Positions 11,344 through 58,381 of a DNA stretch of 62,051 nt are shown piece by piece. The stretch covers positions 1 to 62,051 of the IMG/VR virus record IMGVR_UViG_3300030098_005428. One strand, given 5' to 3'. The position numbers and the translations under genes were made by a program. Position 1 is the first letter of the stretch. Every line of letters begins with the position of its first letter. A model generated the notes under the pieces. That model was not told the DNA's origin and made no database searches. It saw only the letters and a list, made by a program, of their open reading frames with translations. This DNA comes from a virus (Duplodnaviria > Caudoviricetes).

Positions 11344-11353
11344 AATTTTAAAT

Positions 11354-11569
11354 TTATTTTTTTATTTTTTCAAAAGAACTTATCCCGAAGCAACCTAATG
11401 TAACCCATACAAATGAGTTATAAACTACTTCGTTTATAATAAGATCTTTATCTGCTATTAAACTTGTTAATAAATCAGCTATGGCAAATAATACCATAAC
11501 TATAAATGAGATAAACCCAACTAGATTTTTCTCATTAATATCGTTTTTGTCTTTAAATAATGCCCACAT
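11354..11569 (-). CDS. Small two-TM membrane protein (holin-like)
   Basis: Two hydrophobic segments and a basic C-terminus; start likely MWALF. Confidence 0.55.
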   Translation of the reverse strand: MWALFKDKNDINEKNLVGFISFIVMVLFAIADLLTSLIADKDLIINEVVYNSFVWVTLGCFGISSFEKIKK

Positions 11570-11570
11570 A

Positions 11571-33300: not shown

Positions 33301-34566
33301 TGGTCTAACATCAAATGGTATTGTTGTTCCTCCACCAACAGTAACGGTTCTTGCTGTATTTACCATAGATAAGTTATGAGCTTCTACTGGGTTATACTCA
33401 AATCCATTGTCTTGATTTGGTAAAAATGCAACTTTAGAAAATGGTGAAAAACAAGAATATTCACCATCTGCATATTTCCATCTATATCCAAATCTTGGAA
33501 ATTTTAATTCATATATGGGATCTCCTTGTATTAACTCAACTTTCCACGTTAATGATTCTAAGGTTAAATTACTTGAAATCGAAATAACATCACACCAATA
33601 GTTTTTTGAGGTAGCGGTTTCACCAAGTGTATCTCCACTACCAGTATTTGTCGTAGAAACTATTTGTAATGTTGCTGAGTATGTTTCTTGTAAACCAGTA
33701 TCTGTGGTTGATGCTGTTAATTGAACTTTATCTCCTTCTTTAAATATAGGTTTTGAATTTGCAGTAAATGTAATACCAGCAGCTTTACGTATTTGATAAC
33801 CTTTTGGTCTAGGTTCGATTACACTTTCTGAACTAGAAATTGTTCTGGTTTCTGTTAATTCACCTGCTTGTGATACATATGTTGCTGTTGTGGATCTTGT
33901 TTGATCTCTACTAGCGTCTGATGTTTTATACAACGCTATGTCTGGGGCGTTGAGTGGTGATTTTTTTATTGTAGTAATATGTTCTTCTAGTATGTTACCT
34001 TTATCTACACCACTAATAAATAATTTTGTCATTGTAGAATACGAACTAGCACCGGTAGCACAACCTGATTTACAACGTTCTATATTTATTTTTTTAGGTT
34101 CGTTTTTATTATCTGTCCACAATAAAAATGTTGTAGCAGCATTATCTTTATCTTCATCAACTATTAAATTAACCCCAGTAATTAGGTTGTCATTTTTTCT
34201 ATTTAACGCTTCTGTTTGAAAATTTAAAATACCACCTGATGTAGATTTTACATCAACTAAAACTGGTTTAATTTGTTTTGTAATAGTACTATACTCTACA
34301 ATAGCATCAACCGCTGTACCCGCAATAAACCAATAAATTTTATCATTTTTTGTATCAGCTATTGAACCAATACATTTTTGGCCAGTAATACCTAATGTAG
34401 ATATTCTTTCTGTACCCAAAACGTTTTGAGCAGTACCTACATTACCTGTTTCAGACGTGGCTATATCAATGTTTAATGCATCTCTATATTCACCTTTAGG
34501 AAGTAATCTTTCATCAAGATCTTTATTCATTCGACCTGATGTAAAGTTATTTTTTATTTCTGGCAT
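27388..34566 (-). CDS. Tail stabilization/nozzle protein (crAss-like) with long beta-rich C-terminal extension
   Basis: N-terminus MPEIKNNFTSGRMNKDLDERL.P.GEYRDA.N; YGISENPESFA, YFTD..RG.V.RL, GWTSF. Confidence 0.75.
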   Translation of the reverse strand: MPEIKNNFTSGRMNKDLDERLLPKGEYRDALNIDIATSETGNVGTAQNVLGTERISTLGITGQKCIGSIADTKNDKIYWFIAGTAVDAIVEYSTITKQIKPVLVDVKSTSGGILNFQTEALNRKNDNLITGVNLIVDEDKDNAATTFLLWTDNKNEPKKINIERCKSGCATGASSYSTMTKLFISGVDKGNILEEHITTIKKSPLNAPDIALYKTSDASRDQTRSTTATYVSQAGELTETRTISSSESVIEPRPKGYQIRKAAGITFTANSKPIFKEGDKVQLTASTTDTGLQETYSATLQIVSTTNTGSGDTLGETATSKNYWCDVISISSNLTLESLTWKVELIQGDPIYELKFPRFGYRWKYADGEYSCFSPFSKVAFLPNQDNGFEYNPVEAHNLSMVNTARTVTVGGGTTIPFDVRPKDVVEVDVLYKESNHTSVYTVTTLKTKEDMDSVESGGDGYSITSEQVHALVPSNQLLRPWDNVPRMAKAQEITKNRVIYGNYLQNYNIPEEPSFVINVGKTEIEDSTATQSLKSIRNYQVGIVFLDKFARQTPVLSNDSGAIKLDQSYAETANKLNVKVKNNRQGDLVKPEWATHYRYFIKEPSLEYYNLAMDRFYTQEGDHIWLSFPSAERNKIDEETYLILKKKHDVDEAPEITKGKTLKYKILDIKNEAPKSIRKRKNLVTTLTTQFGKTEADTGNGFPEELGLYINIPYATIKDTPVESFLDENPNELYIRIAKTGGETERYQLTGIEPIGTPTQGTVVGAGSTPNGYWKFNLKVPLGSDVNMLKTSAGVEVAGLSAKFYKEETEDLEEFDGRFFVKIKRDNDLDKSLLSFVQNPTYGVEHTCRLFYINYLKSDVGEDDPKRVDYQYSFRPAKQEVYAGIGAGNATLCIDHAAFYKNENSLGEWKGTELKWEGGNKSQPNPTTDKSVWFGNGNVDKNGIDGKRMIRLRWLGGNDGSLPNTTIGRSAFKSDGEYNTYLKLLQTGTKFRFESDPSGSIHEIVSQNGVDGYPRVGYNYLKDNGNLSDKIKKYDSNHALQMILTLKTTIDGVEQNNIGWAPISPNAPRIDQYGTHNYRNTMGWKIDNSGGASETIEIVKEIFNELTYSSKSPAIWETEPKESPDLEIYYEAGKTYPIADLGDANGDDIEYMNCWSFGNGAESNRIRDDYNAIFVDKGPKVSSTLAEQYAEERRASGMIYSGIYNSSSGVNRLNQFIQAEKITKDVNPEYGSIQKLYTRDSDVLVLCEDKCLRVYANKDALYNADGSTNLLSSNRVLGTSDPFVGDYGISENPESFASHGFRAYFTDKRRGAVLRLSRDGLTNIAYKGMRDWFSDNLRQPKTILGSYDDKKDNYNLTLIGSSNNTISYTELVGGWTSFKSFIPQSALTLNNTYYSFYNGDLWEHNKNSLRNKFYGTSYDSTIKLIFNDTPSTIKNFKTLNYEGTTSRLYKTTQRGYAAGTDTTLEKEGWYCNSFTTSEQDGDVPYFINKEGKWFANLHGSGITTTDLETKQAAKEFKVQGIGELSSSSGPSRAGYHVKISVEMDSSDDTSDNLFAIPTSFTIDGTTYDNTVSDGYHVAGGATVSKNVIFTFEPNDANTAGASVMKAADFAFVSESSSTVTNAVTDASVAFANTTSAYADDNKVTMTVPISFTMPTNDQTIVVKITGKAKHIYTVSGRWYSIARNTSVPTASNLLGAAYSASGLEGETVTIDLDTSDAGVTTTTFTAATDHIFKEGSHPSVDLKNTLYFGSNYRVTETPALGSTGDISTKSFAITYKIPNRSVENDRIDFIAEAENNEVAAGTNITSWSIDVESYEEFETTIATGATSATQTLASTANLNAGMAVTGNGIPLNSLVVINSITSSTVVVLSESITTTAGDTYTFAKPNIISKQGEDDVSLKVYGEAGAKFKIYLTKDSDSTSLLTDSDGLTVSSIEGEIPAAGSTNAYYEELLDFPKIVDKDVSDESTLKQTYTLKLEEITGTSVFISPLSSPEQMRFIQYQDAIVDVEVTEGLSSAAAVTTLSPTSGNYEKRSLLEPNVPDEVTISSVLTSSSSGKDFKFLDALDTDGDGISEAIPLSIVGGDVRELVGEKITTTDGGIVSFNNLQVALNNTPALATATLTGSMNIHKYGTKDDYLSIAWESLVGFELAVGDAVATSAVNDGVYEIPITLPTGAGTFEVSVNAAARPDRFQILFDSTNKTSNNISDMTVVADSFYIGDHLRTAGTSDGQRGHFRTQTIGDHTMNKFMYVGEGGNATKESDGSAMPEWDTNGTTLITISDSVIAGPASNSPDTTNAAWRDACDPDGDGEGINHDGQSGLTSYYYANAAAFTSNTKTHHDAADSSAYLFEDDGNATLEYSKPSSTSTRAYIRVTAKSAAGSTGWDIYGTRFTAT

Positions 34567-45157: not shown

Positions 45158-45429
45158 TATTTAGATCTTCTTTCCGCAAACCCTTGAAAAGTACTTTCTT
45201 TTTGTGTTGTGGGTTTATCTTCTAATATATTTTTTTCTTCTTCAATTCTGTTTAATATCTCAAACGCGTCAAAAATAGCTAATTTTTTAGTAGCTGCAGC
45301 ATTTTTTAATCTATCAGCAGAAACATCATCCTCTGAATCAACTATTTTTTCTTTTGCTACTTTAATTAATTCATCAACCGCTTTATAACCAGCTTGGATT
45401 ATATTCTTTTTCTTGTCCTTGATATTCAT
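45157..45429 (-). CDS. Hypothetical protein (possible terminase small subunit)
   Basis: Helical 90 aa ORF coupled to the large subunit. Confidence 0.45.
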   Translation of the reverse strand: MNIKDKKKNIIQAGYKAVDELIKVAKEKIVDSEDDVSADRLKNAAATKKLAIFDAFEILNRIEEEKNILEDKPTTQKESTFQGFAERRSK

Positions 45430-45973
45430 ATTTAATTGAAATTGAATTTGTTAATACTCTATATAATCTCTCTCCATTAATAATAAACTCGTATTTACTA
45501 TTAGGAGTAAAACCTATTAAATCTTCTGATTTAATATCTTTAAGGCTATTGTCACAATATTTCATTATACCGATTAATGGTTGTTCTTTATCAATACTAA
45601 ATTTATCATATGATTTAATTGGTTTAACAAAACAATATCCACTTAAAGCTTTCCAGTTATTATTTCTCTTGTATGCAAATATTTGATCTTCTTTTACCGC
45701 ATACATATTTTCGTTAATATAACTTCTACTGTTTTGTTCTCTACCATGTACATTATGAAATCTTCTAAAGACATTATGGTGAACAATTACCTCATCATTT
45801 ACTTGTATCTCTGTTTTACCTATAGAAGGTAAAGATAAAACAACACCAATTCTATTAACATATTGATGGTGTGCTATTTCACTATTTAATATTAATTCTT
45901 TATCACCTATTTTCTTTTTATTATTATACCTACTTCCCTTTGGTTTAATAATAAAATCATATAAGCTTTGCAT
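45383..45973 (-). CDS. GroES-like fold protein
   Basis: G.V...P....I...DEVIVHH pattern, apparently in two modules. Confidence 0.45.
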   Translation of the reverse strand: MQSLYDFIIKPKGSRYNNKKKIGDKELILNSEIAHHQYVNRIGVVLSLPSIGKTEIQVNDEVIVHHNVFRRFHNVHGREQNSRSYINENMYAVKEDQIFAYKRNNNWKALSGYCFVKPIKSYDKFSIDKEQPLIGIMKYCDNSLKDIKSEDLIGFTPNSKYEFIINGERLYRVLTNSISIKYEYQGQEKEYNPSWL

Positions 45974-46502: not shown

Positions 46503-47411
46503 TTACTTCTTAACAACTTTCTTTTTTGGCTGAACAATAAACCAGTCCTTGTATACATCACGTTTTTCACAAATATAATCCATATACTTATCTACTTTTT
46601 CTTTCCAATTCTTATCTACCATTGGATTAACAATGCCAGATTTAGGACTAGAAAAACATTTATTTATATAATCTTTTATATGATGTTGATTTGTAAATAA
46701 ATATTTATTAATAGATTCGAAAGATCCTGCTGTTAAAGTATTCCATGTATCAATAGGTTCTATTCTTTTTCCTAAAACAGCCGCGTAAATGGCACTTTCA
46801 CTTATATGTGTTGTATATACCGCTTTAGCTTTTTGTAAATAATAATACATATCAACTTCTCTAGGTAAAATGTTACTTTCACCAAAAAAATCTTTTAACT
46901 CACCAATTATTTGATGTGTTGTTATTGGATGTGGTTTAAAATATACATTATTACCATGTTTCTTAGATATAGCTTTCAATCTATTTAAGCAAACATTAGT
47001 TTTAACTTTATTTGAACCAGGTAAAACAACTAAATAATCTTTAGCTGGCCATTTTTCTATTTCTTCTTTTCTACCCTCATATTTATTTGCTAGCTTTGAC
47101 TGTATGTTATTTACTAAGTATGATGACCAATCATCTGGGTTTTTAACATTATCATCCCAAGCATCCATTAATTGTTCTCCTCTGAGCTTTGAATTTAATG
47201 GTTGAAAGTAAAAATTAGTAGCAAATTCTGTATATCCCATAGTTTTAAAATAAGGCATTTCTTCTGCCATTACATCATAACTAGTTTCTAAAAATCTTTC
47301 ACTACACTTACGTAAGCAATAACCCTCAACTTGTTCTAATTCATCAAGAGCTTTACTTTTTTTAAGTCGTCCTATTCTTTGAGATAAGACCTTTTGATTA
47401 AACATTTCCAT
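46503..47411 (-). CDS. KpsS/KpsC-like (GT-B) glycosyltransferase, candidate Kdo transferase
   Basis: VYFKPHP and AVYTTHISESAIYAAVLGK resemble the C-terminal half of the capsule-synthesis family. Confidence 0.55.
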   Translation of the reverse strand: MEMFNQKVLSQRIGRLKKSKALDELEQVEGYCLRKCSERFLETSYDVMAEEMPYFKTMGYTEFATNFYFQPLNSKLRGEQLMDAWDDNVKNPDDWSSYLVNNIQSKLANKYEGRKEEIEKWPAKDYLVVLPGSNKVKTNVCLNRLKAISKKHGNNVYFKPHPITTHQIIGELKDFFGESNILPREVDMYYYLQKAKAVYTTHISESAIYAAVLGKRIEPIDTWNTLTAGSFESINKYLFTNQHHIKDYINKCFSSPKSGIVNPMVDKNWKEKVDKYMDYICEKRDVYKDWFIVQPKKKVVKK

Positions 47412-47470: not shown

Positions 47471-49732
47471 CTATCCAGTAGATCGAATCAAATTTTCTCT
47501 TTCTGTAGAATAATCTGTTCGATAAGTATTGTACCAAGATTTTGTTGTATTATAACTAGTTGTAGTATTATAAGTTGTAACTGTAGCTGTAGTTGTATTA
47601 AATGTTGTGGTTGTACTTTTAGTAGTATTATACGCTGTACTAGTAGATCTAGTTGTTTCATAAGCAGTAGAAAACAAAGTTATGGTATTGGTTGTTGTAT
47701 TAAACGTAGTTGTGGTTGATTTACTAGTTGACCATGTTGTAGCAGTTGCAGTTTGCGTATTGTATGTAGTTGTAGTAGATTTTGATGTTATGGTTGATGT
47801 GTTAAATGTTGTTGTTGTACTAGTTGACGTATTATATGCAGTTGCTGTTGTTTTAGATGTTTCATACGCAGTTGTAGTACTTCTACTTGTCGCCCACGTT
47901 GTTACAAAAATTGTTGTAGTAGCTGTTTGAGTATTAAATGTTGTAGTTGTATTAGTGCTAGTATTGTATGTTGTTGAAGTTGTTTTACTTGTCTCAAACG
48001 TTGTGGTTGTGTTAGTGCTTGTATTGTATGTTGTGTTAAACGCGGTTGTGGTTGCTGTTGTTGTATTAAATACTGTACTTGTAGATTTATTTGTTGCCCA
48101 TGTGGTTGTAGTGGACTTACTAGTTATTGAACTTGTTTCAAATATTGTTGTTCTACTTGTTTCCCATGTGGTGGTATAAACTGTATTTGTTGCTGTTTGT
48201 GTATTGTATACCGTTGTCGTGCTCTTACTAGTGGACCACGTGGTTGTTGTTCCAGTAGAAGTATTAAATGTTGTAGTTGTGTTTGTACTCGTATTATAAG
48301 TTGTACTAGTAGCTTTACTTGTAATAGTTGACGTATTAAACGTAGTGGTTGTAGCTGTTTGTGTATTATACGTAGTTGTAGTATTAGTAGTTGTATTATA
48401 CGTAGTTGTAGTGTTTTTGTTGGTACTCCATGTTGTTGTAGTAGATTTACTTGTTATAGTACTAGTATTAAAAGCAGTTGTTGTGCTTTTACTTGTAGAC
48501 CAAGTTGTAGTGGTTGACTTACTTGTTGATACAACTGTGTTTGTACTTTTACTAGTTGTAGTGGATGTATTAAACACCGTTGTTGTTGCTGTAGAAGTAT
48601 TGTATGTTGTACTAGTTGCTTTTGTGGTATTATAAGTCGTTGTGGTAGATTTACTAGTTGATACAGTTGTGCTTGTACTAGTATTATACGTAGTTGTTGT
48701 TGCAGTTGATGTATTGAATGTAGTAGTAGTTGCCGTGGTAGTATTATATACCGTCGTTGTACTTTTAGATGTAGAAACTACTGTATTTGTACTTCTTGTT
48801 GTAGCTGTTGTTGTGTTAAATGTAGTTGTTGTGCTCTTTGAAGTTGACCACTCAGTAGATGTTGATTTACTAGTACTTACCACCGTTGCAGTTTGTGTGT
48901 TATATGTTGTGGTAGTGGCAGTTGATGTGTTAAATGTAGTTGTTGTAGCGGTTGTTGTATTATAAGCTGTTGATGTAGCTTTTGACGTAGATACAACCGT
49001 GTTAGTACTTTTGCTTGTTACCGTACTGGTATTATATGCTGTTGATGTAGATTTTGATGTAGACCAAGTTGTGGTTGTACTCTTTGTAGTTAATGTACTT
49101 GTGTTATATGTAGTTGTGGTGCTAGTGCTAGTGTTGTAAGCTGTGGTTGTATTAAATGTTGTTGTTGTGTCGTATGTTGTAGTTGTATTTGTGCTGGTAT
49201 TAAAAGTTGTAGTCGTGCCTATTGTAGTTGTGGTTGTTGTATTAAATGTCGTTGTGGTAGCTGTACTAGTATTATAAGCTGTTGCTGTGGTTTTTGATGT
49301 TGATGTACTTCTAGTTGTTGCTGTTGATTTAGTAGTATTGTAAGTTGTAGTTGTATTTATTGTAGTGGTTGTTGAGGTATTAAACGTGGTAGTTCTACTA
49401 GTTGCCCAACTAGTTCCTGTAGAGCGAGAAGTTGATGTTGATCTTGTTGTTTGTTTAGAAGTACTTTGACTTGTTGACCACGTGGTTGTGAAAGTAGTTG
49501 TAGTATTAAATGTTGTTGTGGTACTATGACTAGTTTGCCATGATGTAGTTGTACTTCTACTAGTAGCCCAAGTCGTAGTAGTATTAAACGTTGTAGTTGT
49601 ATTTTGACTTGTAGCATATGTGGTTGATCTACTAGTACCAACAGTATAATTTGTTTGTGGTGTGGTAATTGTAGTACTTGTGTTTCTTGATGTATTTTTT
49701 TGAGTTGATACACAGGTTTGAGTATTAGGCAT
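47471..49732 (-). CDS. Thr-rich repeat protein B (753 aa), antiparallel partner of protein A
   Basis: Even-length units (YNTSTNTTTT, WSTSKSTTTT, VVSTSK); synonymous codon variation; start overlaps upstream stop. Confidence 0.85.
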   Translation of the reverse strand: MPNTQTCVSTQKNTSRNTSTTITTPQTNYTVGTSRSTTYATSQNTTTTFNTTTTWATSRSTTTSWQTSHSTTTTFNTTTTFTTTWSTSQSTSKQTTRSTSTSRSTGTSWATSRTTTFNTSTTTTINTTTTYNTTKSTATTRSTSTSKTTATAYNTSTATTTTFNTTTTTTIGTTTTFNTSTNTTTTYDTTTTFNTTTAYNTSTSTTTTYNTSTLTTKSTTTTWSTSKSTSTAYNTSTVTSKSTNTVVSTSKATSTAYNTTTATTTTFNTSTATTTTYNTQTATVVSTSKSTSTEWSTSKSTTTTFNTTTATTRSTNTVVSTSKSTTTVYNTTTATTTTFNTSTATTTTYNTSTSTTVSTSKSTTTTYNTTKATSTTYNTSTATTTVFNTSTTTSKSTNTVVSTSKSTTTTWSTSKSTTTAFNTSTITSKSTTTTWSTNKNTTTTYNTTTNTTTTYNTQTATTTTFNTSTITSKATSTTYNTSTNTTTTFNTSTGTTTTWSTSKSTTTVYNTQTATNTVYTTTWETSRTTIFETSSITSKSTTTTWATNKSTSTVFNTTTATTTAFNTTYNTSTNTTTTFETSKTTSTTYNTSTNTTTTFNTQTATTTIFVTTWATSRSTTTAYETSKTTATAYNTSTSTTTTFNTSTITSKSTTTTYNTQTATATTWSTSKSTTTTFNTTTNTITLFSTAYETTRSTSTAYNTTKSTTTTFNTTTATVTTYNTTTSYNTTKSWYNTYRTDYSTERENLIRSTG

Positions 49733-50810
49733 CTGTAAATCCTCCTTTCTTAATTAAAATATTATTAATAAAATAATTATAATCACTTTGCACGTGGCTA
49801 ATATTATAAGCATTATCATCACTACTATCAAATTCTAATTTTGTTATTTCAACTTCAGTGTTATCCACTCTATATAACTTATCTCCAACCACTAATTCGT
49901 TTACATTCTTCTCAACCCAAGATCCATCGCGCTTTACTACCATGGGTTGATTACCAGATACTATTAGTAAATCATCATTAATTTTCCACATACCATAACA
50001 TACAACACTCCAACAAGTAAGATCACTTCCCGCATATGTTAAAACGGGATTCGCAGGATCTTCACATGTTAATACACTATATGCTTGTCCAGCTTTTTCA
50101 ATTTCAATTTGTCCAACTAATTTTTCTGAATAATGAAGGAGTTTAGACCCATTAACAAAACCAGGTATTTTCTTTAATTCAGGTGTTAAAGTTAAAACTG
50201 GTAACTTCATTGTAGTTTGATTAAAATATGTATTTTCTGGTGGATCAACTGTAATGTTTGTAAATTGAACATCATTTGCCCATGATGTTGGTTCAGTACA
50301 ATCAAAAAGCATAAAGGGATCTGTTGTACCAGCTGTAAAATTCCACCATGTTACCTTACAATTTGGCTTAGCTTTATTTCTAGCAAAATGACGAAATTTA
50401 GTATGTAATAAATCGTCTGCATATGCAAATAGTTGAAATATTGCATCGTAACGAGTATAGTGTTCAGACATTAAAGTCCACCAAGTATCTTCAACAATTC
50501 TAACATTTGATTTACCAACAGCCCAAGCTTTTGCTTTTGTTATCAACTCAGGGTGTGATTCTGTTATAGTATGTGATGCAGGATTTCTTGCTTGAATAGC
50601 ATCAGCTAACATACCCATACCAAAACCACATTCTAAAACATGATCACCAGCCTCGACGCATAGCTCGGCCGCCTTAGTGTGTATCGGTTGTTCCCATGAC
50701 ATTTGAATTTCTCTTGTGTCATTTAAATCCGAAGCCCAAGTAATCTTATCACTAGCAAATGTTAAATTTGCTTCTAAATACGCCTTTCGTCTAACTGCTG
50801 GATCTACCAT
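49725..50810 (-). CDS. Class I SAM methyltransferase (GAMT/RMT2-like) fused to a degenerate Hint domain
   Basis: MSWEQPI, VLECGFGMG, HTITESHP; C-terminal ELVVGD...YNI...YNYFINNILIKK. Confidence 0.7.
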   Translation of the reverse strand: MVDPAVRRKAYLEANLTFASDKITWASDLNDTREIQMSWEQPIHTKAAELCVEAGDHVLECGFGMGMLADAIQARNPASHTITESHPELITKAKAWAVGKSNVRIVEDTWWTLMSEHYTRYDAIFQLFAYADDLLHTKFRHFARNKAKPNCKVTWWNFTAGTTDPFMLFDCTEPTSWANDVQFTNITVDPPENTYFNQTTMKLPVLTLTPELKKIPGFVNGSKLLHYSEKLVGQIEIEKAGQAYSVLTCEDPANPVLTYAGSDLTCWSVVCYGMWKINDDLLIVSGNQPMVVKRDGSWVEKNVNELVVGDKLYRVDNTEVEITKLEFDSSDDNAYNISHVQSDYNYFINNILIKKGGFTDA

Positions 50811-50828
50811 ATTTCTTATATTTACATG

Positions 50829-53081
50829 TTATATACAATTTCTAAAGCATCCACCAAATTGTGTCATCCAACATGAATGATAGTATGTTGTCCATGATGT
50901 ACTAAATGTATATCCTGTGGTGTCTACGTCTAATAAAATTGTAGTATTATAATGTGTTGTTCTTGTTGTATTCCACGATGTTGAAGTGGATCTACTTGTT
51001 GATGTACTTTGTGAAGTATTAAATGTTGTAGTAGTACTCTTACTAGTATTATAATAAGTAGTTGTGCTTTTTGAAGTTGATGTTGATCTTGAAGTAGATG
51101 CACTAGTATTCCATGACGTTGTATACGTGGTTGTAAATGTTGTTGTGGTATTAAACGTTGTAGTTGTATTTTGACTTGTGTTAAATGTTGTTGTTCTTGA
51201 TGTTGCCCAAGTGGTTGTATAGGCAGTTGCGGTTGATTTAGTAGTTTCATATGTTGTTGTGGTATTAAACGTTGTTGTTGTATCATATGTTGTTGTAGTA
51301 TTAGTACTTGTATTATAATTTGTGGTAGTATTTTTGTTAGTTGACCAAGTTGTTGTATAAGCAGTTTGGGTTGTTGTGCTTGTGTTATATGTTGTAGATG
51401 TGGTTTTTGAAGTAGCGGTACTTCTAGTAGTAGCGGTTGCTGTGCTTGTGTTATATGTTGTTGTAGTATTTTTACTAGTTGATTTAGTTGTAGTATATTG
51501 TGTTGTTGTACTTTGTGAAGTATTAAATGTCGTTGTGGTGTTTTTACTAGTTTCCCAAGTAGTTGTATATGCCGTTGTGGTTGCAGTGGTTGTGTTATAT
51601 ACGGTGGTTGTATTTGTCGACGTATTATATGCTGTGTTTGTATTTTTAGAAGTAGACCAAGTTGTTGTAGTAGATTTACTAGTGCTAACAACAGTTGTTG
51701 TAGATGTATTATATGTAGTAGTGGTGTTAGTTGACGTATTAAACGTTGTAGTTGTATTCTTATTAGTAGACCAAGTTGTATTAAAAGTTGTGGTAGTTGC
51801 GGTCTGTGTATTATACGTTGTAGTAGTACTTTTAGATGTACTAGAAGTTTCGTTTGTAGATTTCGATGTAGACCAGGTTGTAGTAGTACTTTTACTCGTT
51901 GAGATTACCGTTGTAGTACTAGTATTATATGTGGTAGTTGTTGATTTACTAGTCTCGTATGTAGTGGTAGTATTAGTACTTGTGTTATAAGTTGTAGTTG
52001 TATTTTTATTAGTACTCCATGTTGTTACATAAGCTGTAGTAGTTGCAGTTTGTGTATTATAAGTTGTGGTAGTAGCTGTACTTGTGTTAAATGTGGTAGT
52101 TGTACTTTTTGACGTTTCCCACGTGGTTGTATATGTTGTGGTAGTAGCTGTCGATGTGTTAAAAGTAGTGGTAGTGCTTGTTGTTGTATTGTAAGCTGTC
52201 GATGTAGCTTTGCTGGTTGATACAACTGTATTTGTTGATTTATTTGTACTCCAAGTTGTTGTATACGCGGTTGTTGTATTAGTTGCAGTATTATATGTGG
52301 TTGTGGTAGCTCTACTGGTAGACACAACAGTGTTAGTTGTTGTACTAGTATTAAATGTTGTTGTTGTAGATTTACTTGTTGAAACTACAGTATTAGTAGA
52401 TTTATTTGTTGTTGTTGATGTATTAAATATTGTAGTTCTACTAGTATTCCATGTTGTAGTATATGTTGTTGTTGTGTTAGTACTAGTATTAAATGTTGTG
52501 GTTGTTGATTTATTTGTACTCCATGTTGTATTTGTTGACTTACTAGTTGTGGTGCTAGTGTTGTATGTTGTAGTGGTAGCTTTAGTTGTATTATATGTAG
52601 TTGTAGTATTTGTAGATGTATTATAAGCAGTACTTGTACTTCTAGTTGTACTAACCACTGTATTTGTAGATCTTTGGGTTGCTGTGCTAGTATTAAAAGC
52701 GGTGGTAGTATTAGTTGACGTATTATACGTAGTAGTAGTATCAGTTGATGTATTGTACGTAGTGGTAGTATTTTTACTTGTAGCCCAACTAGTAGAATAT
52801 GCCGTTGTAGTCGTTGTACTTGTATTAAACGCGGTTGTAGTATTAGTTGATGTATTAAAGGTAGTAGTTGTAGATTTACTAGTTGAAACAACTGTTGCTG
52901 TTGATTTCTGCGTAATAGTACTAGTATTAAAAGTTGTAGTAGTATTAGTTGATGTGTTATATGTTGTGGTAGTAGCCTTATTTGTAGACCAAGTTGTGTT
53001 TGTATTTTTACTTGTGGCTGTTGCTTTTGTTGTTGCTGTTACCCAATTATCTTTCTTTGAAAATCCTAGTAAATTCCTCAT
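50829..53081 (-). CDS. Thr-rich repeat protein A (750 aa), antiparallel partner of protein B
   Basis: Same repeat vocabulary as B; Cys-containing C-terminus. Confidence 0.85.
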   Translation of the reverse strand: MRNLLGFSKKDNWVTATTKATATSKNTNTTWSTNKATTTTYNTSTNTTTTFNTSTITQKSTATVVSTSKSTTTTFNTSTNTTTAFNTSTTTTTAYSTSWATSKNTTTTYNTSTDTTTTYNTSTNTTTAFNTSTATQRSTNTVVSTTRSTSTAYNTSTNTTTTYNTTKATTTTYNTSTTTSKSTNTTWSTNKSTTTTFNTSTNTTTTYTTTWNTSRTTIFNTSTTTNKSTNTVVSTSKSTTTTFNTSTTTNTVVSTSRATTTTYNTATNTTTAYTTTWSTNKSTNTVVSTSKATSTAYNTTTSTTTTFNTSTATTTTYTTTWETSKSTTTTFNTSTATTTTYNTQTATTTAYVTTWSTNKNTTTTYNTSTNTTTTYETSKSTTTTYNTSTTTVISTSKSTTTTWSTSKSTNETSSTSKSTTTTYNTQTATTTTFNTTWSTNKNTTTTFNTSTNTTTTYNTSTTTVVSTSKSTTTTWSTSKNTNTAYNTSTNTTTVYNTTTATTTAYTTTWETSKNTTTTFNTSQSTTTQYTTTKSTSKNTTTTYNTSTATATTRSTATSKTTSTTYNTSTTTQTAYTTTWSTNKNTTTNYNTSTNTTTTYDTTTTFNTTTTYETTKSTATAYTTTWATSRTTTFNTSQNTTTTFNTTTTFTTTYTTSWNTSASTSRSTSTSKSTTTYYNTSKSTTTTFNTSQSTSTSRSTSTSWNTTRTTHYNTTILLDVDTTGYTFSTSWTTYYHSCWMTQFGGCFRNCI

Positions 53082-53093
53082 ATCGTTTCATAA

Positions 53094-54923
53094 TTAAGCA
53101 AAGTTACCAACATAATTTACAAGAACTTTATCCGTAGCATGAACGTAATAAGAAATCATAGATATTGCGTTTGCGGTTGTTACAAAATTTACAGTTGCGC
53201 CGTCTGGCGTGAGCATATAACTTGGAAGTGCTACAAAGGACAAAGATCCAACACTTGAAGGATTAACAATTGTAATTGTACCAGATTGACCAACATTTTC
53301 AGATGCTACAGTTAATGCAATTGTTGTGGCTGCATTATTACACGCTATATTAAAGTTATCATTTAAACTTAAATCACAAGTGTGTGTATTACTTGATTCT
53401 GTCGCTGTTGTTATTGTTCTTCTTAAATTTTGCGTACACTTAATACTACCTGTTACATCTACATCACCACCAGCACTAACACCACCAGCAGAAGCTATTT
53501 GTAAATGTCCAGTTGGTGTACCATCACTATCATTTGCCCAAAAGTGTAATGTTTCGCTTGTGTCAAAGGCTATCATCCTTTTACCAGTCCAATCTAAGAA
53601 ACCTGGTTCTGATGTTGCTGTTCCAAAAAATATACCTTGATCGTCATTATTACCTTTTTGTGGAAATAATCTTAAACTACCTATTTGACTTGAATCACCT
53701 CTCCAGTGGCCAATTTCTTTACCGTCTAATGTAAATCCTATTTTAGTTGTATTTGCTTCGTTATTATAATCTGCTGCAATAGCAAGAGATCCAGCGCTAC
53801 TATTAGCTGTTAAATAAGAATCACCATTAGTATCTGAATCTGTAAAGTATAAAGTTGGCGCTACACCTTTTAAATGTAAATGACATTTATTAGGATTATA
53901 TTCAAAACCTCCAGTATCATCATGTAAATTACTAGATTCATCATGAAACACAACTGGATATTCATCGCATGTATCTTTGTCTGCGACTGTAACTTTTGAA
54001 GTTTCGCCTTCTATATTCGCCACTAATGTACCCACCGCATAACCAGTTCCACCTGTATTAACTGTTGTTGTTGGTGCTGCTTGTAAATCTTTAAATAATT
54101 TCCATTTACCTGAATCATTAGCGTCTCTAAATAAACCACTATACAGATCTTGTGATCCACTAGTATCATATAATCCATAAAATCCTATATCTACAGTATC
54201 AGATGAATTGTTACCACTTGCTAATATCATCAATGGATCTTCAACACTTAATGTTGCTGTGTTTACTGTTGTGGTATCACCGTTTACAGTGAGATCACCA
54301 CCTACCGTTAAATTATCGTTTATTGTTGTTTCTGAGGTCGAATGACCAATTGATATAGGTACACCTGAGGTAGCAGTACCTATAGTAATACCATTTGAGG
54401 TATTAGAATTGTCTATGTTAAATGATGTTGTTGCGTCTAATGATATTGTAGTTCCATCAACCGCAAATGTTCCATCAATATCTGTATTATCTAAATTAGT
54501 TGTGCCGTCTACATCTAAATCACCATTAAAATCAGCATTACCGGCTAACGTTAAAGTTGATGCCATATCTACAGCACCGTCTATGTCTACTGCATCTAAA
54601 TTAGAAGTTCCATCCACGTCTAAATCACCATTAAAATCAGCGTTACCAGATAGTGTTAAACCAACAAATGTAGGTGAATCACCCGTACCAATACCTAAAT
54701 CAACTGTATCAGTACCACCATCAACTTCTGTCATAGTTAAGACACCGGTGCTTGTATTAAACGCAATATTATTATATCCTTCTGATCCGTATGTAGAATG
54801 AATAAAATTACCTAATTTTTCTACTGTATAATTTTTCGTTAAAGTACCAGAAACATCAGTACCAATTACTCTATCACCAGCTTCAACGGTTGCATCGGTA
54901 TCATATACACTAAGTCTTGCCAT
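53094..54923 (-). CDS. Tail fibre protein
   Basis: G/T/D-rich beta repeats (GNADFNGDLDVDGT x2, LTVGGDLTVNG); start likely MARLS. Confidence 0.7.
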   Translation of the reverse strand: MARLSVYDTDATVEAGDRVIGTDVSGTLTKNYTVEKLGNFIHSTYGSEGYNNIAFNTSTGVLTMTEVDGGTDTVDLGIGTGDSPTFVGLTLSGNADFNGDLDVDGTSNLDAVDIDGAVDMASTLTLAGNADFNGDLDVDGTTNLDNTDIDGTFAVDGTTISLDATTSFNIDNSNTSNGITIGTATSGVPISIGHSTSETTINDNLTVGGDLTVNGDTTTVNTATLSVEDPLMILASGNNSSDTVDIGFYGLYDTSGSQDLYSGLFRDANDSGKWKLFKDLQAAPTTTVNTGGTGYAVGTLVANIEGETSKVTVADKDTCDEYPVVFHDESSNLHDDTGGFEYNPNKCHLHLKGVAPTLYFTDSDTNGDSYLTANSSAGSLAIAADYNNEANTTKIGFTLDGKEIGHWRGDSSQIGSLRLFPQKGNNDDQGIFFGTATSEPGFLDWTGKRMIAFDTSETLHFWANDSDGTPTGHLQIASAGGVSAGGDVDVTGSIKCTQNLRRTITTATESSNTHTCDLSLNDNFNIACNNAATTIALTVASENVGQSGTITIVNPSSVGSLSFVALPSYMLTPDGATVNFVTTANAISMISYYVHATDKVLVNYVGNFA

Positions 54924-54924
54924 G

Positions 54925-55332
54925 TCATTTCTTTTTAAATTGATTAAACTTTTCAACGCTTCGTCCGCCGAAATAGGCCCCGATGGTAGTCATTAAAACT
55001 AACTGAAGTAAATCTGTCCATTTTTGCTCAACGTTGAATGTTATTGAACCACTATCAATAAACACCATGATTACAGTAGATATAATTAAAAAGATTAAAA
55101 CCAGTGGACGTACTGATCTTGTTAAAAAGTTACCATGTTCTAGATCTGCTTTCCATCTATCGGTAACATTTTTCTGCATTGCTGCCTCAGCATCAAGAAA
55201 AATTTGTTCCATATCTTTTTGAAACGCTCTCTTCTCATCGCCTGTTGTTATAAATTTATCGGCGACGCCGGATAGTTTTTGTAATACACTACCTCCGGCA
55301 TTGCCAAATATTTTTCCTAAAATTTTACTCAT
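54925..55332 (-). CDS. Holin (3TM/GTA-holin-like)
   Basis: DKFITT..EK, RW.AD, VRP, AYFGGRS.EK. Confidence 0.75.
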   Translation of the reverse strand: MSKILGKIFGNAGGSVLQKLSGVADKFITTGDEKRAFQKDMEQIFLDAEAAMQKNVTDRWKADLEHGNFLTRSVRPLVLIFLIISTVIMVFIDSGSITFNVEQKWTDLLQLVLMTTIGAYFGGRSVEKFNQFKKK

Positions 55333-56553: not shown

Positions 56554-56811
56554 TTAGTCTATTAACACCACATCACCGACTTTGATGACATAGTATAATA
56601 TTTCTTTATGTTGTATACTGTGACCAGCGTGCTTATCATAATATACAACATCATTTTCTTTTATGCCTTCCACTAAATTACCTATACTGAATACTTTAGC
56701 TTTAACGTATCTATTATCTTCATCTACGTTATCCATAATATCTAAACCAGCTATTTTCTTTGGTTTTTCCTTTATGTTTTCTACTACAAGATAATAATTA
56801 ACTGCTTTCAT
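56554..56811 (-). CDS. groES: Co-chaperonin GroES
   Basis: 85 aa coupled to groEL; AGL mobile loop, V.SIG, D.VYYDKHAG. Confidence 0.8.
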   Translation of the reverse strand: MKAVNYYLVVENIKEKPKKIAGLDIMDNVDEDNRYVKAKVFSIGNLVEGIKENDVVYYDKHAGHSIQHKEILYYVIKVGDVVLID

Positions 56812-58381
56812 TCTTATTAACTCTTACGTTAGAAATAACACAATCTGCTGAGATAATAGTGTTTACTACACTCACAGCATTTTGTAATGCAGTTTTTGTA
56901 ACTAAGACGGGGTCTACGATTCCAGCTTTAACCATGTCGACTTGATTACCAGAGATTACATTAAAACCAACACCTTTAGTGGTAGGTGTTTCGTAGTTTT
57001 CAATACCAGCATTTTCCATAATAGTTTTAAATGGAGATTTTATGGACTTTACTAATATTTTCTCCCCCATATTTTTGGGTTTTATATTACTAGCCGCATT
57101 TAATAAAGCTATTCCACCACCAGGTACAATACCTTCTTTTAATGCTGCTTTAGTAGCGTAAATTGCATCTTCAACCCTATCTTTTTTTTCTTTCAATTCT
57201 ACTTTAGAATGTGCACCCACTTTAATCATCCCCACAGATCCGGATAACATGCCTAATCTTTCTTCTATCTTACTTTTAATAAAAGTATTTCCTTCTTTTT
57301 TAATTGCTTTTTTAACTTCTTTAATCCTATCTTGTAATTCTTTCACATTTTTATCAACTGTTAATACAGTATGTGAATCATCTGTTACTGCTGTTTTAGC
57401 ATAACCAAGTACATCTGGTTGTATTAAATCCAAATCATCACCTAATTCTTCATTTAATACTTTTGCTCCTGTTAATATACCTAAATCTTCCATGGTATCT
57501 TTTTTGGTTGGACCAAAGCCAGGTGGATCAATAATATTAATTTCAATATTACCTTTTACTTTATTCATTAATAATGCGGATTTTGCTTGTTGTTCTATAT
57601 CCGCTATAATTAATAAACTTCTTCTATTCTTTATAACATATTCAAGTATGTTTTGTATTTTCCTTACACTAGGTATTTTAGAATCTACAATAAGAACACA
57701 TGGTTCTTCAAGAACAGATCTATTTTTATCTTTATCGGTTACAAAATGAGGTGAAGTTAATCCTGATTCGAATTTTACTCCATCTACTATATCAGCATAC
57801 GTTTCACCAGTATCTGATTCTTCCATTAATACTACACCATCTTTACCTACTTTTTCGTAAGCTTCTGATATAATTTTTCCAAGCTCGTTATCGTTATTGC
57901 AAGATATTGAGCTGACGTGTTCCAAAAGATCTCCTTCAACTTTAATACTGGTTTTATCAAGATATTTCTTAATTTTTGCCAAACCTGAATTAATGCCTTC
58001 TTTGATTTCTCTAATAGAACACTTATTTTCTTTAATATTTTTCTCATTCAATACATTTTTTAATAATGCTTCTGCTAGTACGATTGCTGTTGTTGTACCA
58101 TCACCTGCTTCTTTTACTGTTTTTTGAGATGCTTCTTTGATTAATGTCGCTCCCATGTTTTCAACCGGATCATATAAGACAACCGATTCAGCTACGGTTA
58201 CACCGTCTTTTGTAATCACCGGTTTGCCCATGGCATCTTCGTATATTACGCATTTACCAGAGGCACCTAGGGTGGATTTGACTGCCTCAGCAAGTTTATC
58301 CACACCTAAAATTATCCTCTTTTTAGCATTGTCGCTAAAATTTAAATCTTTAACGATTTGACTAGGGTTATTATATTCCAT
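56798..58381 (-). CDS. groEL: Chaperonin GroEL
   Basis: TLGASG, ITKDGVTVA, AGDGTTTA, PGFG, EKKDRVEDA, GIVPGGG, GIVDP. Confidence 0.95.
   Translation of the reverse strand: MEYNNPSQIVKDLNFSDNAKKRIILGVDKLAEAVKSTLGASGKCVIYEDAMGKPVITKDGVTVAESVVLYDPVENMGATLIKEASQKTVKEAGDGTTTAIVLAEALLKNVLNEKNIKENKCSIREIKEGINSGLAKIKKYLDKTSIKVEGDLLEHVSSISCNNDNELGKIISEAYEKVGKDGVVLMEESDTGETYADIVDGVKFESGLTSPHFVTDKDKNRSVLEEPCVLIVDSKIPSVRKIQNILEYVIKNRRSLLIIADIEQQAKSALLMNKVKGNIEINIIDPPGFGPTKKDTMEDLGILTGAKVLNEELGDDLDLIQPDVLGYAKTAVTDDSHTVLTVDKNVKELQDRIKEVKKAIKKEGNTFIKSKIEERLGMLSGSVGMIKVGAHSKVELKEKKDRVEDAIYATKAALKEGIVPGGGIALLNAASNIKPKNMGEKILVKSIKSPFKTIMENAGIENYETPTTKGVGFNVISGNQVDMVKAGIVDPVLVTKTALQNAVSVVNTIISADCVISNVRVNKNESS

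What the first reader, a model, noticed from the sequence alone, without database searches (positions are those of the whole stretch)
47471..53081. Two Thr-rich proteins are gap-free antiparallel complements: a sequence-coded heterodimeric beta-zipper
Seen: A (750 aa) and B (753 aa) use only even-length units, so node residues (F/Y/W/V/I or K/R/Q/H/T) fall on one face at irregular 4- or 6-residue spacing. Aligning B forward against A backward with i(A)+j(B)=746, I matched by hand about 140 nodes from A-K19/B-Y727 to A-Y711/B-R35 (693 residues) with no indel. Reversed A reads Y4R4W6R6Q4F6K4Y6K6R4A4W4Y4F6F6Q4F4R; B reads R4Y4Q6F6W4R6W4H6F6F4W4Q4K4R6R6W4R4F. K/R face F/Y, W nearly always faces T/S/Q/A, and V/I face T. 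I found no aromatic-aromatic or basic-basic pair and few exceptions (A-K533/B-T213, A-S413/B-T333, two Y/I pairs, A-K681/B-W65). Both genes are on the same strand, so this is not a DNA inversion. Established: cross-strand cation-pi and aromatic-Thr pairs stabilise antiparallel sheets, and Thr is strongly beta-forming. Inference: A and B zip into an in-register ribbon (about 230 nm if extended at 0.33 nm/residue) whose aperiodic spacing fixes a unique register, like base pairing. Neither has a signal peptide and A follows the tail-fibre gene, so a virion fibre or molecular ruler is plausible. I know of no description of such a system.
Basis: partly seen in the sequence, partly recalled or inferred. 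Interest (0 to 1): 0.96.

Follow-up and report, generated by a model that had tools for sequence, protein, structure and literature searches.

The report
Complementary threonine-rich phage fibre pair
Two half-threonine phage proteins match each other residue by residue when one is read backwards, as do dozens of related pairs of very different lengths, which points to a previously undescribed two-chain beta-zipper fibre.

Summary
A (750 aa) and B (753 aa) are 48-49% Thr. At the antiparallel offset i+j=746, 77 of the 85 Lys/Arg face Phe/Tyr/Trp, with 1 same-class pair. The next offset gives 60 and 2000 unit-shuffles at most 29. There is no DNA inverted repeat.

Comparative data carry the interpretation. 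In 32 distinct related IMG/VR gene pairs the paired spans run from 333 to 1412 residues. A and B lengths track each other (r=0.9998) with 0-4 small gaps. A second family (28 pairs, A carrying a fused Hint domain) and seven single-chain proteins with a loop at the symmetry centre follow the same rule.

Best reading: a split, very long beta-hairpin. A and B pair in register and antiparallel through an aromatic/cation ladder in a Thr matrix, probably as the distal part of a virion fibre. A GAMT-like methyltransferase (with a degenerate Hint domain) lies between the genes and a glycosyltransferase-like gene follows them.

No structure or binding was shown: both fold attempts were uninformative. 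Six literature searches found no description of such proteins.

The parts
53094..54956 (-). Upstream tail-fibre-like gene (620 aa). Its last ~115 residues are a conserved domain that directly precedes A in relatives. Proposed, by inference, as the docking site for the base of the A/B fibre.
   Evidence: PHROG structural-protein hit E=2.1e-5. The C-terminal part (residues ~505-620) lies immediately upstream of A in 24 of 30 loci with a complete A 5' end.
50829..53081 (-). Gene A, 750 aa, 48% Thr. First chain of the zipper.
   Evidence: No Pfam or PHROG family.
50949..53027 (-). Paired region of A (residues 19-711), with uninterrupted two-residue alternation.
   Evidence: 104 of 106 large/charged node residues are on odd positions. 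74 aromatic-K/R pairs with B at i+j=746.
50832..50855 (-). C-terminal motif of A, GGCFRNCI. Relatives have GGGG-C-x-R-G-C-[I/Q/N] followed by the stop. It lies at the 'tip' end and resembles the Gly-Cys junction that precedes fused Hint domains in other pairs.
49725..50810 (-). Gene X, 361 aa, between A and B: a methyltransferase domain plus a degenerate Hint-like domain.
50232..50708 (-). X residues ~35-193: class I SAM methyltransferase domain, closest to guanidinoacetate N-methyltransferase. Motif I is VLECGFGMG.
   Evidence: phmmer against PDB 3orh E=3e-5. A profile of 20 homologues gives E=9.2e-15.
49740..50198 (-). X residues ~205-357: Hint (intein-like) fold without the catalytic Cys1, TxxH His or terminal His-Asn in the window copy.
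   Evidence: Profile hit to the intein-containing chain 9hth E=6.6e-5, and weaker hits to 2lwy, 2jmz and 5o9i. Motifs read from alignment A1.
47471..49732 (-). Gene B, 753 aa, 49% Thr. Second chain. Its start overlaps the end of X by 8 nt.
47552..49630 (-). Paired region of B (residues 35-727).
   Evidence: 101 of 101 node residues are on odd positions. Pairing shown.
46503..47411 (-). ORF302, always downstream of B. Glycosyltransferase-like (GT-B-like Rossmann) fold; a candidate modifier of the Thr/Ser-rich chains (inference).
   Evidence: phrog_26179 E=5.9e-37. AF2 model pLDDT 77.4, pTM 0.78. Foldseek top hits are the Kdo transferases KrkA, KpsC and WbbB, E=2e-4 to 2e-3, TM 0.3-0.42. 72 of 80 related loci have a Thr-rich ORF upstream; the other 8 have under 500 nt of upstream sequence.

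Best explanation
A and B are the two arms of a split, extremely long beta-hairpin.

Geometry. The two chains lie antiparallel and in register (A residue i opposite B residue 746-i) over about 690 residues. One side-chain face is Thr with a large residue every 4, 6 or 10 positions. On that face every Lys/Arg of one chain lies opposite Phe/Tyr (rarely Trp) of the other, giving a cation-pi ladder. Trp and the remaining Tyr face Thr or Gln, and Val/Ile face Thr, Ser or Ala. The other face is small and polar (Thr/Ser/Asn/Ala). The irregular order of spacings and of which chain carries the cation makes the correct register the best one.

Polarity. Gene order and polarity give a 'base' (A N-terminus plus B C-terminus, both short conserved motifs) and a 'tip' (A C-terminus plus B N-terminus). 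The base probably docks on the conserved C-terminal domain of the upstream tail-fibre-like protein, so the pair would form the distal, length-variable part of a virion fibre. The tip is where relatives carry an autoprocessing domain, either Hint or Peptidase_S74. This suggests that assembly nucleates there and zips toward the base as B is made.

Accessory genes. The methyltransferase between the genes and the glycosyltransferase-like gene after B are conserved and probably modify the chains.

Shown: the complementarity, its significance, its conservation with compensated length changes, the single-chain versions, and the domain assignments at the stated E-values.

Inferred: beta structure, direct contact, stoichiometry, attachment to the virion, and the roles of X and ORF302.
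For: 1. One dominant gap-free antiparallel register. 77 of 85 K/R are paired with aromatics and there is 1 same-class pair. Unit-shuffles reach at most 29 in 2000 tries. Self and parallel controls reach at most 34.

2. Strict two-residue periodicity over about 690 residues in both chains (104 of 106 and 101 of 101 node residues on one parity). This is as expected for one continuous strand and not for a helix or a solenoid with turns.

3. No DNA-level cause. There are 0 inverted repeats and the direct repeats have diverged to 60-75% identity. Thr codon usage is like the rest of the genome.

4. Compensated length change. Relative L003 has A' of 1203 aa and B' of 1210 aa, with 119 of 131 K/R paired at one offset. 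A/A' and B/B' are collinear only in the paired blocks A2-505 and B271-753. All the extra length lies in the mutually paired remainder.

5. 35 of 35 loci with two Thr-rich ORFs have a best offset above every shuffle. In 32 distinct pairs the paired spans are 333-1412 residues, with r=0.9998 between arms and 0-4 gaps. 2913 of 2993 K/R face an aromatic, with 2 aromatic-aromatic and 2 basic-basic pairs in 22,560 positions. Preferences that were not in the scoring scheme also appear (R:F 70%, H:Y 74%, W:T/Q).

6. An independent search seeded with a Thr-rich-plus-Hint protein gave 37 metagenome loci. 28 of the 30 with two Thr-rich ORFs are complementary (z>10), with gap-free blocks up to 905 residues.

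7. Single-chain versions exist. Six baseplate-wedge-type proteins are self-complementary about a centre that falls in a short loop, rich in Gly, Pro or Asn in most of the six, with arms of about 170-320 residues. L121 has 74 pairs about its centre.

8. Extra domains always sit at the tip end, either on A's C-terminus or B's N-terminus.

9. Fibre context.
Against: - No experiment or confident model shows beta structure or binding.
- The register is not unique in this pair. A slip of 10 residues keeps 60 of the 77 pairs. The Hint-fused family is more periodic still (for example 109 against 93 in L092).
- Some pairs carry uncompensated indels: 1-8 residues in many, and 24 residues in L073.
- A two-stranded ribbon with no hydrophobic core, 230 nm long if fully extended (693 x 0.33 nm; the rise per residue is recalled), would be unusual.
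- One clade of A ends in a Peptidase_S74 chaperone domain, known from homotrimeric fibres (recalled). The true unit may therefore be a higher oligomer.
- There is no proteomic evidence that A or B is in the virion.
- ORF302 linkage is partly by construction, because the first family of loci was found through ORF302.
Confidence: 0.68

Rival explanations
1. The same in-register A:B pairing occurs, but as one interface of a larger assembly. Examples are three A:B ribbons bundled or wound together (A3B3), or a multi-stranded sheet or tube in which each chain has two neighbours. The isolated heterodimeric ribbon would then not be the functional unit.
For: One clade of A ends in a Peptidase_S74 intramolecular-chaperone domain (Pfam E=9.1e-5, 23.1 bits against a cutoff of 22). 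In known fibres that domain acts on homotrimers (recalled). A second register at -10 keeps 60 of 77 pairs here, 101 of 121 in L017 and 100 of 144 in L021, which could reflect a second interface. The small polar face (T/S/N/A) could pack against another ribbon.
Against: The second-best offset is not conserved across clades (-10, +46, -46, -16, -18, +34). It equals internal repeat lengths, so it is explained by repeat order alone. Most clades, including the window, have no trimerisation domain. Nothing here measures stoichiometry.
Confidence: 0.22
2. A and B do not touch each other along their length. Both line up on a third, polar linear partner (a host polysaccharide, another fibre protein or nucleic acid), or the pattern is a by-product of how the repeats are generated.
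For: No binding was demonstrated. The proteins are highly repetitive, and repeat-generating processes can create long-range order.
Against: A third partner gives no reason for cation-against-aromatic complementarity between the two chains, nor for the exclusion of like pairs (4 like pairs in 22,560 positions). No DNA-level inverted relation exists. A reverse-complement reading of Thr codons cannot give Thr (my own codon reasoning). Single-chain versions place a loop exactly at the symmetry centre, as a fold-back requires. Unit shuffles abolish the signal.
Confidence: 0.05
3. A and B are mucin-like, heavily modified, largely disordered polymers. The aromatic and cationic residues act as multivalent 'stickers', without a defined register.
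For: Extreme Thr/Ser content, a glycosyltransferase-like neighbour, and low-confidence predicted structures.
Against: Sticker models need no positional order. Here the order is exact over up to 1251 residues without a gap (L021) and parity is kept throughout. There is no Pro in the paired regions of A and only 2 Pro in all of B, unlike mucin domains (recalled).
Confidence: 0.05

Closest known systems
Designed beta-hairpins and two-stranded sheets stabilised by cross-strand aromatic-cation and Thr-Thr pairs (e.g. tryptophan zippers, Lys/Arg-Trp hairpins); recalled, not from a call
   Same: Cross-strand pairing of Lys/Arg with aromatic rings and of Thr with Thr on one face of an antiparallel pair.
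   Different: Those are 12-20 residue single peptides. Here there are two separate chains of about 700 residues (up to about 1400 in relatives), with an irregular code that is conserved by co-evolution.
Heterodimeric coiled coils (Fos/Jun-type leucine zippers); recalled
   Same: Two different chains recognise each other through a linear pattern of complementary residues that sets partner and register.
   Different: Those are alpha-helical with a heptad period and usually parallel. Here the period is two residues, the orientation is antiparallel, the composition favours beta structure (48% Thr), and the span is tens of times longer.
Single-layer beta-sheet of Borrelia OspA; recalled
   Same: A beta-sheet segment stable without a hydrophobic core, exposed on both faces.
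   Different: OspA is one chain of short hairpins between two globular domains, with no heterodimer and no aromatic/cation code.
Phage tail fibres and spikes with a C-terminal intramolecular chaperone (Peptidase_S74; K1F endosialidase, T5 pb1); the Pfam hit is, the biology is recalled
   Same: A phage fibre context, and an autoprocessing chaperone domain at the C-terminal tip of chain A in one clade.
   Different: Known cases are homotrimers of one chain with beta-helix or triple-helix shafts. The window's A lacks this domain, and a second, complementary chain is needed.
Hedgehog/BIL-type Hint autoprocessing domains; Pfam and PDB hits, the biology is recalled
   Same: A Gly-Cys junction followed by a Hint fold at the end of the cargo (A) in the second family and in L077. 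The window's A ends in GGCF..., like the hedgehog cleavage site (recalled).
   Different: In the window the Hint fold sits in a separate protein (X), behind a methyltransferase. It lacks Cys1, the block-B His and the terminal His-Asn.
Serine-rich repeat glycoproteins of Gram-positive bacteria with dedicated glycosyltransferases; recalled. P0012 is such a compositional hit
   Same: Very long Ser/Thr-rich repeats next to a glycosyltransferase-like gene.
   Different: No signal peptide or wall anchor, no complementarity, and a different repeat. The HMMER match (E=4e-84) is to SLSTSES repeats and is compositional.
Thr-rich beta-solenoid ice-binding and ice-nucleation proteins (TxT arrays); recalled
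   Same: Flat arrays of Thr on alternating positions.
   Different: Those have a fixed coil length (12-16 residues) within one chain. Here spacings are irregular (4, 6, 10) and the order is mirrored in a second chain.

Membership tests
Hint / intein superfamily (C-terminal half of X) | Sequence or profile similarity to Hint domains | tested here: met
   A profile of 20 X homologues hits the intein-containing chain 9hth at E=6.6e-5 over positions 212-339, and hits 2lwy, 2jmz and 5o9i weakly. Pfam finds nothing in the window's X alone.
Hint / intein superfamily (C-terminal half of X) | Nucleophilic Cys/Ser as first residue of the domain | tested here: not met
   In alignment A1 the domain begins G-F-V-N-G-S in the window and G-V/I in relatives, with no Cys or Ser at that column. 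The fused forms in L077 and L093 etc. do start with C-I/V-V-E-G.
Hint / intein superfamily (C-terminal half of X) | Block B Thr-x-x-His and C-terminal His-Asn | tested here: not met
   The window has S-G-N-Q and ends ...ILIKKGGFTDA. Many relatives keep T-G-N-H but none has the terminal His-Asn. The fused forms have TxxH and THN.
Class I SAM methyltransferase, GAMT-like (N-terminal half of X) | Profile similarity including the Gly-rich SAM motif I | tested here: met
   PDB guanidinoacetate N-methyltransferase 3orh: E=3e-5 with the single sequence and 9.2e-15 with the profile. VLECGFGMG is invariant in 20 of 20 sequences. Pfam Methyltransf_25 is only E=0.0031, below its cutoff.
Class I SAM methyltransferase, GAMT-like (N-terminal half of X) | Methyl transfer to a guanidino or amino group of A/B | not testable with these tools
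   The substrate is inferred only from gene position. An MTase-fold gene lies between A and B in 30 of 31 distinct middle regions.
Peptidase_S74 intramolecular chaperone | Pfam PF13884 match at the C-terminus of the fibre chain | tested here: not met
   There is no Pfam hit in the window's A, whose C-terminus is GGCFRNCI. It is met in another clade (L047 A C-terminus, E=9.1e-5, 23.1 bits against a cutoff of 22).
GT-B-like glycosyltransferases (Kdo/sialyl-transferase-like) for ORF302 | Fold similarity to solved glycosyltransferases | tested here: inconclusive
   The AF2 model has pLDDT 77.4. Foldseek finds KrkA, KpsC and WbbB at E=2e-4 to 2e-3, but TM-scores are only 0.3-0.42. There is no Pfam or PDB sequence hit. 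Catalytic residues were not examined.
Beta-solenoid Thr-rich ice-binding / ice-nucleation repeats | Constant coil length giving a fixed repeat period | tested here: not met
   Node spacings are mixed: 4 (33), 6 (32), 10 (28), 8 (5) and others in A, and similar in B. DNA repeat families have many different spacings.
Phage tail fibre (virion component) | Presence in the virion and attachment to the tail | not testable with these tools
   There is context only: A lies next to a tail-fibre-like gene whose C-terminal domain is conserved upstream of A in 24 of 30 loci, and single-chain relatives carry a Baseplate_wedge N-terminus.
Long Thr-rich complementary hairpin/zipper (the group defined here) | One dominant antiparallel offset with K/R opposite aromatics, far above unit-shuffled controls | tested here: met
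   Window pair: 77 against a shuffle maximum of 29. 35 of 35 ORF302-linked pairs meet it, as do 28 of 30 Hint-linked pairs and 6 single-chain proteins plus L121.

The most novel reading that the evidence does not exclude
Marine phages encode a previously unrecognised class of protein fibre: a two-chain (or fold-back) beta-zipper hundreds of residues to over a thousand residues long. Its partner choice and register are written in a simple aromatic-versus-cation code on a polythreonine background. Its length is tuned by matched insertions in both chains. It is nucleated at the tip by Hint or S74 autoprocessing domains; in the Hint forms the thioester might even join A to B covalently. The ladder may be tuned by a dedicated guanidino/amino methyltransferase and by glycosylation.
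Probability: 0.5. Interest if true: 0.95.

Novelty: categorically new. Interest (0 to 1): 0.9.

Why it matters
If the pairing is physical, this is a natural, sequence-addressable recognition code for beta-strands. It would be the beta counterpart of heterodimeric coiled coils, working over lengths no known protein pair approaches.

It would give a testable rule (K/R opposite F/Y, H opposite Y, W opposite T/Q, like never opposite like) for designing register-specific beta ribbons and nanofibres.

It would assign a structure to a sizeable block of unannotated 'dark matter' proteins in marine phage genomes: at least 60 distinct pairs in the contigs fetched here.

It would open questions about how matched insertions arise in two genes, how such fibres serve host finding, and what a methyltransferase, a Hint domain and a glycosyltransferase-like protein do to them.

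Tried and rejected
- **Complex prediction** on A560-711 with B35-186: no verdict (score 0.00, partner fold uncertain, controls not run). This counts neither for nor against binding.
- **AlphaFold2, single sequence**, on a 293-residue stretch around the turn of the single-chain protein P0010: mean pLDDT 42 with spurious helices. Unusable.
- **ESM Atlas**: holds a low-confidence model of A (pTM 0.35). Only unnamed viral clusters lie nearby, and no family emerges.
- **The search of protein representatives** with A: 20 hits. The best (P0012, E=4e-84) is a serine-rich-repeat adhesin, a compositional match. It did add P0021, a further self-complementary protein.
- **The search for homologous proteins** with A: 11 weak hits. 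Useful only as leads (P0003-P0010).
- **DNA inversion or antisense-coding origin**: rejected, with 0 inverted repeats. The reverse complement of Thr codons gives Cys/Ser/Gly/Arg, Val, or Leu/Ser/Trp/stop (my own reasoning).
- **Local-window register scan**: too noisy, because repeat periods (10, 34, 44-58) give ties. Replaced by gapped complement alignment.
- **Mutual information on the small-residue face**: 0.20 against a shuffle mean of 0.14, but higher at shifts of -2 and -4. It therefore cannot tell lateral from face-to-face packing.
- **Cross-locus 'double swap' counts** (2065 swaps against 13 clashes over 512 locus comparisons): not independent of each pair's own complementarity, and based on alignments of repeats. 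Not used as evidence.
- **Conserved block shared with L003**: 0 double class swaps among 457 pair positions (7 changes on A only, 19 on B only, none creating a like-like pair). The relatives are too close to test swaps.
- **Hosts or prophages**: no relative of ORF302 in genome contigs. In the phage collection, ORF302 has only distant (23-31% identity) matches, in Caulobacter and Vibrio phages. Phages with TerL 45-63% identical lack the module.
- **Literature**: six searches returned nothing on such proteins. I saw listings and abstract starts only and read no paper. Supplements were not consulted.

Full report
**What is there.** The window is a phage genome of about 62 kb and about 31% G+C. 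Its large terminase is 45-63% identical to those of podoviruses of Flavobacteriaceae. On the minus strand the genes run in this order:
- a tail-fibre-like gene (53094-54956);
- A (50829-53081, 750 aa);
- X (49725-50810, 361 aa);
- B (47471-49732, 753 aa; its start overlaps the end of X);
- ORF302 (46503-47411);
- a 90-aa ORF, a GroES-like gene, a second 90-aa ORF, the terminase and the portal.

A and B are 48% and 49% Thr (358 of 750 and 366 of 753). Neither matches any Pfam or PHROG family.

**Checking the observation.** I scored every antiparallel offset for aromatic (F/Y/W) opposite K/R.
- Offset i+j=746 gives 77 such pairs. The two proteins hold 85 K/R in all, so 85 is the ceiling. There is a single like-like pair, and it lies outside the paired region.
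- The next offset (736) gives 60 and no other exceeds 37.
- A against itself, B against itself, and the parallel arrangement reach at most 34, 34 and 28.
- I cut B before each aromatic or basic residue and shuffled the pieces 2000 times. This gave mean 18.2, sd 2.3 and maximum 29.

There are 142 node positions, 74 aromatic-K/R pairs between A19 and A711, and no aromatic-aromatic or basic-basic pair. One unpaired K (A533) and two Y/I pairs are present, and A-K681 faces B-W65.

All but two of the 106 large or charged residues in A19-711, and all 101 in B35-727, lie on odd positions. Both chains therefore keep one uninterrupted two-residue alternation for about 690 residues. The alternate face is T/S/N/A. 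Spacings between nodes are mainly 4, 6 and 10, at about 2.1 bits each.

**It is not a DNA artefact.** The region holds no inverted repeat. Its direct repeats are only about 60-75% identical at the DNA level. Thr codon usage matches the rest of the genome. Reverse-complementing Thr codons cannot yield Thr in any frame (my own reasoning). The order is therefore maintained at the protein level.

**Comparative test.** The gene X led to an IMG/VR contig (L003, X 88% identical) with A' of 1203 aa and B' of 1210 aa. One gap-free offset (1200) pairs 119 of their 131 K/R, with one like-like pair. Shuffles reach at most 41. A/A' are collinear over A2-505 (82% identity) and B/B' over B271-753 (81%). These two blocks are each other's partners, and the extra 453-455 residues lie in the remaining, mutually paired parts.

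ORF302 then gave 80 more IMG/VR loci.
- 72 have a Thr-rich ORF upstream. The other 8 have under 500 nt of upstream sequence.
- All 35 loci with two Thr-rich ORFs have a dominant antiparallel offset above every shuffle.
- A gapped 'complement' alignment of the 32 distinct pairs spans 333-1412 residues. The correlation between the two paired lengths is 0.9998.
- These alignments have 0-4 gaps per pair. Most gaps are 1-8 residues, and one is 24 (L073).
- Gap-free blocks reach 1251 residues.

Over 22,560 paired positions, 2913 of 2993 K/R face an aromatic, and there are 2 aromatic-aromatic and 2 basic-basic pairs. The alignment scoring rewards aromatic-basic pairs, so these counts lean that way. 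However, finer preferences that were not scored also emerge: R with F 70%, K with F 49% or Y 41%, H with Y 74%, W with T 44% or Q 14%.

**A second family and single-chain forms.** Weak sequence hits to A included P0008, a Thr-rich protein fused to a Hint domain, and several proteins with a Baseplate_wedge N-terminus.

The baseplate-wedge proteins are complementary to themselves. For example, P0010 has 41 F/Y-R/K/H pairs and one like-like pair about a centre at residue 986. In six such proteins the centre falls in a short loop, rich in Gly, Pro or Asn in most of them. This is what an intramolecular hairpin with arms of about 170-320 residues predicts.

Searching metagenome contigs with P0008 gave 37 loci. 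In 28 of the 30 that hold two Thr-rich ORFs, the Hint-bearing protein and the next gene are complementary (z>10). Gap-free blocks reach 905 residues, on contigs up to 173 kb. One locus (L121) has a 1568-aa single chain with 74 pairs about its centre. This family is more periodic, so its registers are less unique (for example 109 against 93 in L092).

**Polarity and accessory parts.** In every pair the N-terminus of A lies opposite the C-terminus of B, and the C-terminus of A lies opposite the N-terminus of B. Extra, non-Thr-rich domains always sit at the latter, 'tip' end. The C-terminus of A takes one of several forms:
- GGGG-C-x-R-G-C-[I/Q/N] (window: GGCFRNCI);
- a Peptidase_S74 intramolecular chaperone (L047 clade; E=9.1e-5, above the Pfam cutoff);
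- a complete Hint domain with Cys1, TxxH and THN (L077 and the second family; Pfam Hint and Intein models at E=2e-4 to 3e-3, below their cutoffs);
- in a few loci (L051, L072, L078), a Gly-rich tail with none of these.

The N-terminus of B is a conserved Met-Pro/Ala-Asn/Thr-Thr. At the 'base', A begins with a conserved M-K/R-x-L-G-F-x-K-x-D-F-W-like motif shared by both families, and B ends in a conserved W-Y-x-T-Y-R-x-D-Y-S-T-E-R-like motif.

The gene just upstream of A ends in the same roughly 115-residue domain as the window's tail-fibre-like gene in 24 of the 30 loci where A's 5' end is complete.

X combines two domains. One is a GAMT-like methyltransferase (PDB 3orh, profile E=9.2e-15). 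The other is a Hint fold (9hth, E=6.6e-5) that lacks the catalytic residues. Of the 31 distinct middle regions:
- 19 are X-like;
- one is the methyltransferase part alone (L072);
- ten are a different protein of about 173-189 aa, weakly related to the methyltransferase domain (hhalign probability 71%, E=3.6e-5; PDB methyltransferases at E about 0.01);
- one (L077) has none, and there the Hint domain is fused to A.

An AlphaFold model of ORF302 built on 31 sequences (pLDDT 77.4) resembles the Kdo transferases KrkA, KpsC and WbbB and other GT-B enzymes. The TM-scores are low, 0.3-0.42, so I treat 'glycosyltransferase' as a lead.

**How it most likely works.** The simplest account is a long beta-hairpin, here split into two chains. 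In-register antiparallel pairing puts residue i of A next to residue 746-i of B, with both side chains on the same face. On the node face this gives a Thr-Thr matrix punctuated by cation-pi pairs. Like charges and bulky aromatic pairs are avoided.

The irregular sequence of spacings, and of which chain carries the cation, penalises slipped registers. This holds strongly in some pairs (75 against 33 in L016, 92 against 36 in L044) and only moderately in the window's pair (77 against 60).

Two observations suggest that pairing nucleates at the tip and proceeds toward the base as B emerges. A is made before B, and the tip is where autoprocessing or chaperone domains sit. This step is inference. 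The base motifs and the conserved upstream domain suggest attachment to a tail-fibre protein, making A/B the distal, length-variable shaft. Fully extended, 693 residues would span about 230 nm (rise per residue recalled), and the longest relatives about twice that.

Methylation of Arg/Lys and glycosylation of Thr/Ser are plausible roles for X and ORF302. They rest only on gene linkage and fold or sequence similarity.

**What argues against, and what is open.** Nothing here shows binding or beta structure. Both fold attempts were uninformative and are listed only under Tried and rejected.
- A ribbon without a hydrophobic core is unusual.
- The S74 domain in one clade hints at trimers.
- Small uncompensated indels are common, and one of 24 residues exists.
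- The linkage with ORF302 in the first family is partly by construction.

The rivals are a higher-order assembly built on the same pairing (0.22), no direct contact (0.05), and disordered sticker polymers (0.05).

**Novelty.** No Pfam, PHROG, PDB or Atlas family covers A or B. Six full-text literature searches found no description; I saw listings only and read no paper. The nearest known things share single features only: short designed hairpins with cation-pi pairs, heterodimeric coiled coils, single-layer sheets, S74-capped trimeric fibres, and Hint autoprocessing. I rate it categorically new, and widespread rather than a curiosity of one phage.

Noticed in passing
window 56798-58381 (-) and 45383-45973 (-): The phage encodes its own chaperonin: a Cpn60/GroEL (Pfam E=6.5e-54) and a GroES-like protein (phrog_13932, E=3.2e-17). 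Relatives are annotated the same way. It could matter for folding the very long Thr-rich chains.
   Followed up: partly
window 15564-24140 (-) and 27388-34566 (-): Two giant ORFs of 2858 and 2392 aa lie in the structural block downstream of the portal. I did not analyse them.
   Followed up: no
window ~10000-12000: Strand and GC-skew switch. Genes are on the + strand up to about 11 kb and on the - strand from there to the end, and GC skew changes sign. Within A/B the skew is strongly positive on the + strand because of the ACN-rich coding strand.
   Followed up: no
window 48345-48965, 49357-49713, 50930-51691, 51376-51990, 52025-52891, 52684-53097: Long open frames rich in Val or in Leu/Gln overlap A and B in other frames and on the other strand. 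They are by-products of the ACN-rich repeats. Database protein P0001 switches from a Thr-rich to such a Val/Leu-rich reading near its end, so gene callers or assemblies mis-frame these genes.
   Followed up: partly
L073 (A 2598-5489, B 6573-9938): This pair keeps register 1113 for 460 residues and then register 1089. That is a 24-residue indel present in one chain only. It could be an intermediate in length evolution, a looped-out segment or an assembly error.
   Followed up: no
L051, L062, L063, L071, L073 (tip-proximal third of the pairs): A series of three successive one-residue register shifts (+1, +2, +3), spaced 32-48 residues apart, recurs in one clade. This suggests regularly placed beta-bulges or a different local structure near the tip.
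   Followed up: no
L004 5920-6573: A stand-alone 217-aa homologue of X's methyltransferase domain (34% identity) sits among replication genes of an unrelated viral contig, with no Thr-rich genes nearby. The enzyme family is therefore not restricted to this module.
   Followed up: no
L121 67-4770: A 1568-aa single ORF is strongly self-complementary about residue ~790 (148 counted, that is 74 pairs, against a shuffle maximum of 46). It is the longest single-chain hairpin candidate seen.
   Followed up: partly
L077 and L093/L099/L104/L120, C-terminal tails after the Hint domain: After the Hint '...THN', the A proteins carry a 20-40 residue tail with 4-6 Cys (for example RKCDPEEYCNRRNICYDRSKC). 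Its function is unknown. The window's A ends instead in a short C-x-R-N-C motif.
   Followed up: no
P0002 and P0006 (database proteins): Other Thr-rich proteins with W/Y and K/H/R nodes are fused to unrelated C- or N-terminal domains and are not self-complementary. They may have unseen partner genes, but their contigs could not be fetched.
   Followed up: no
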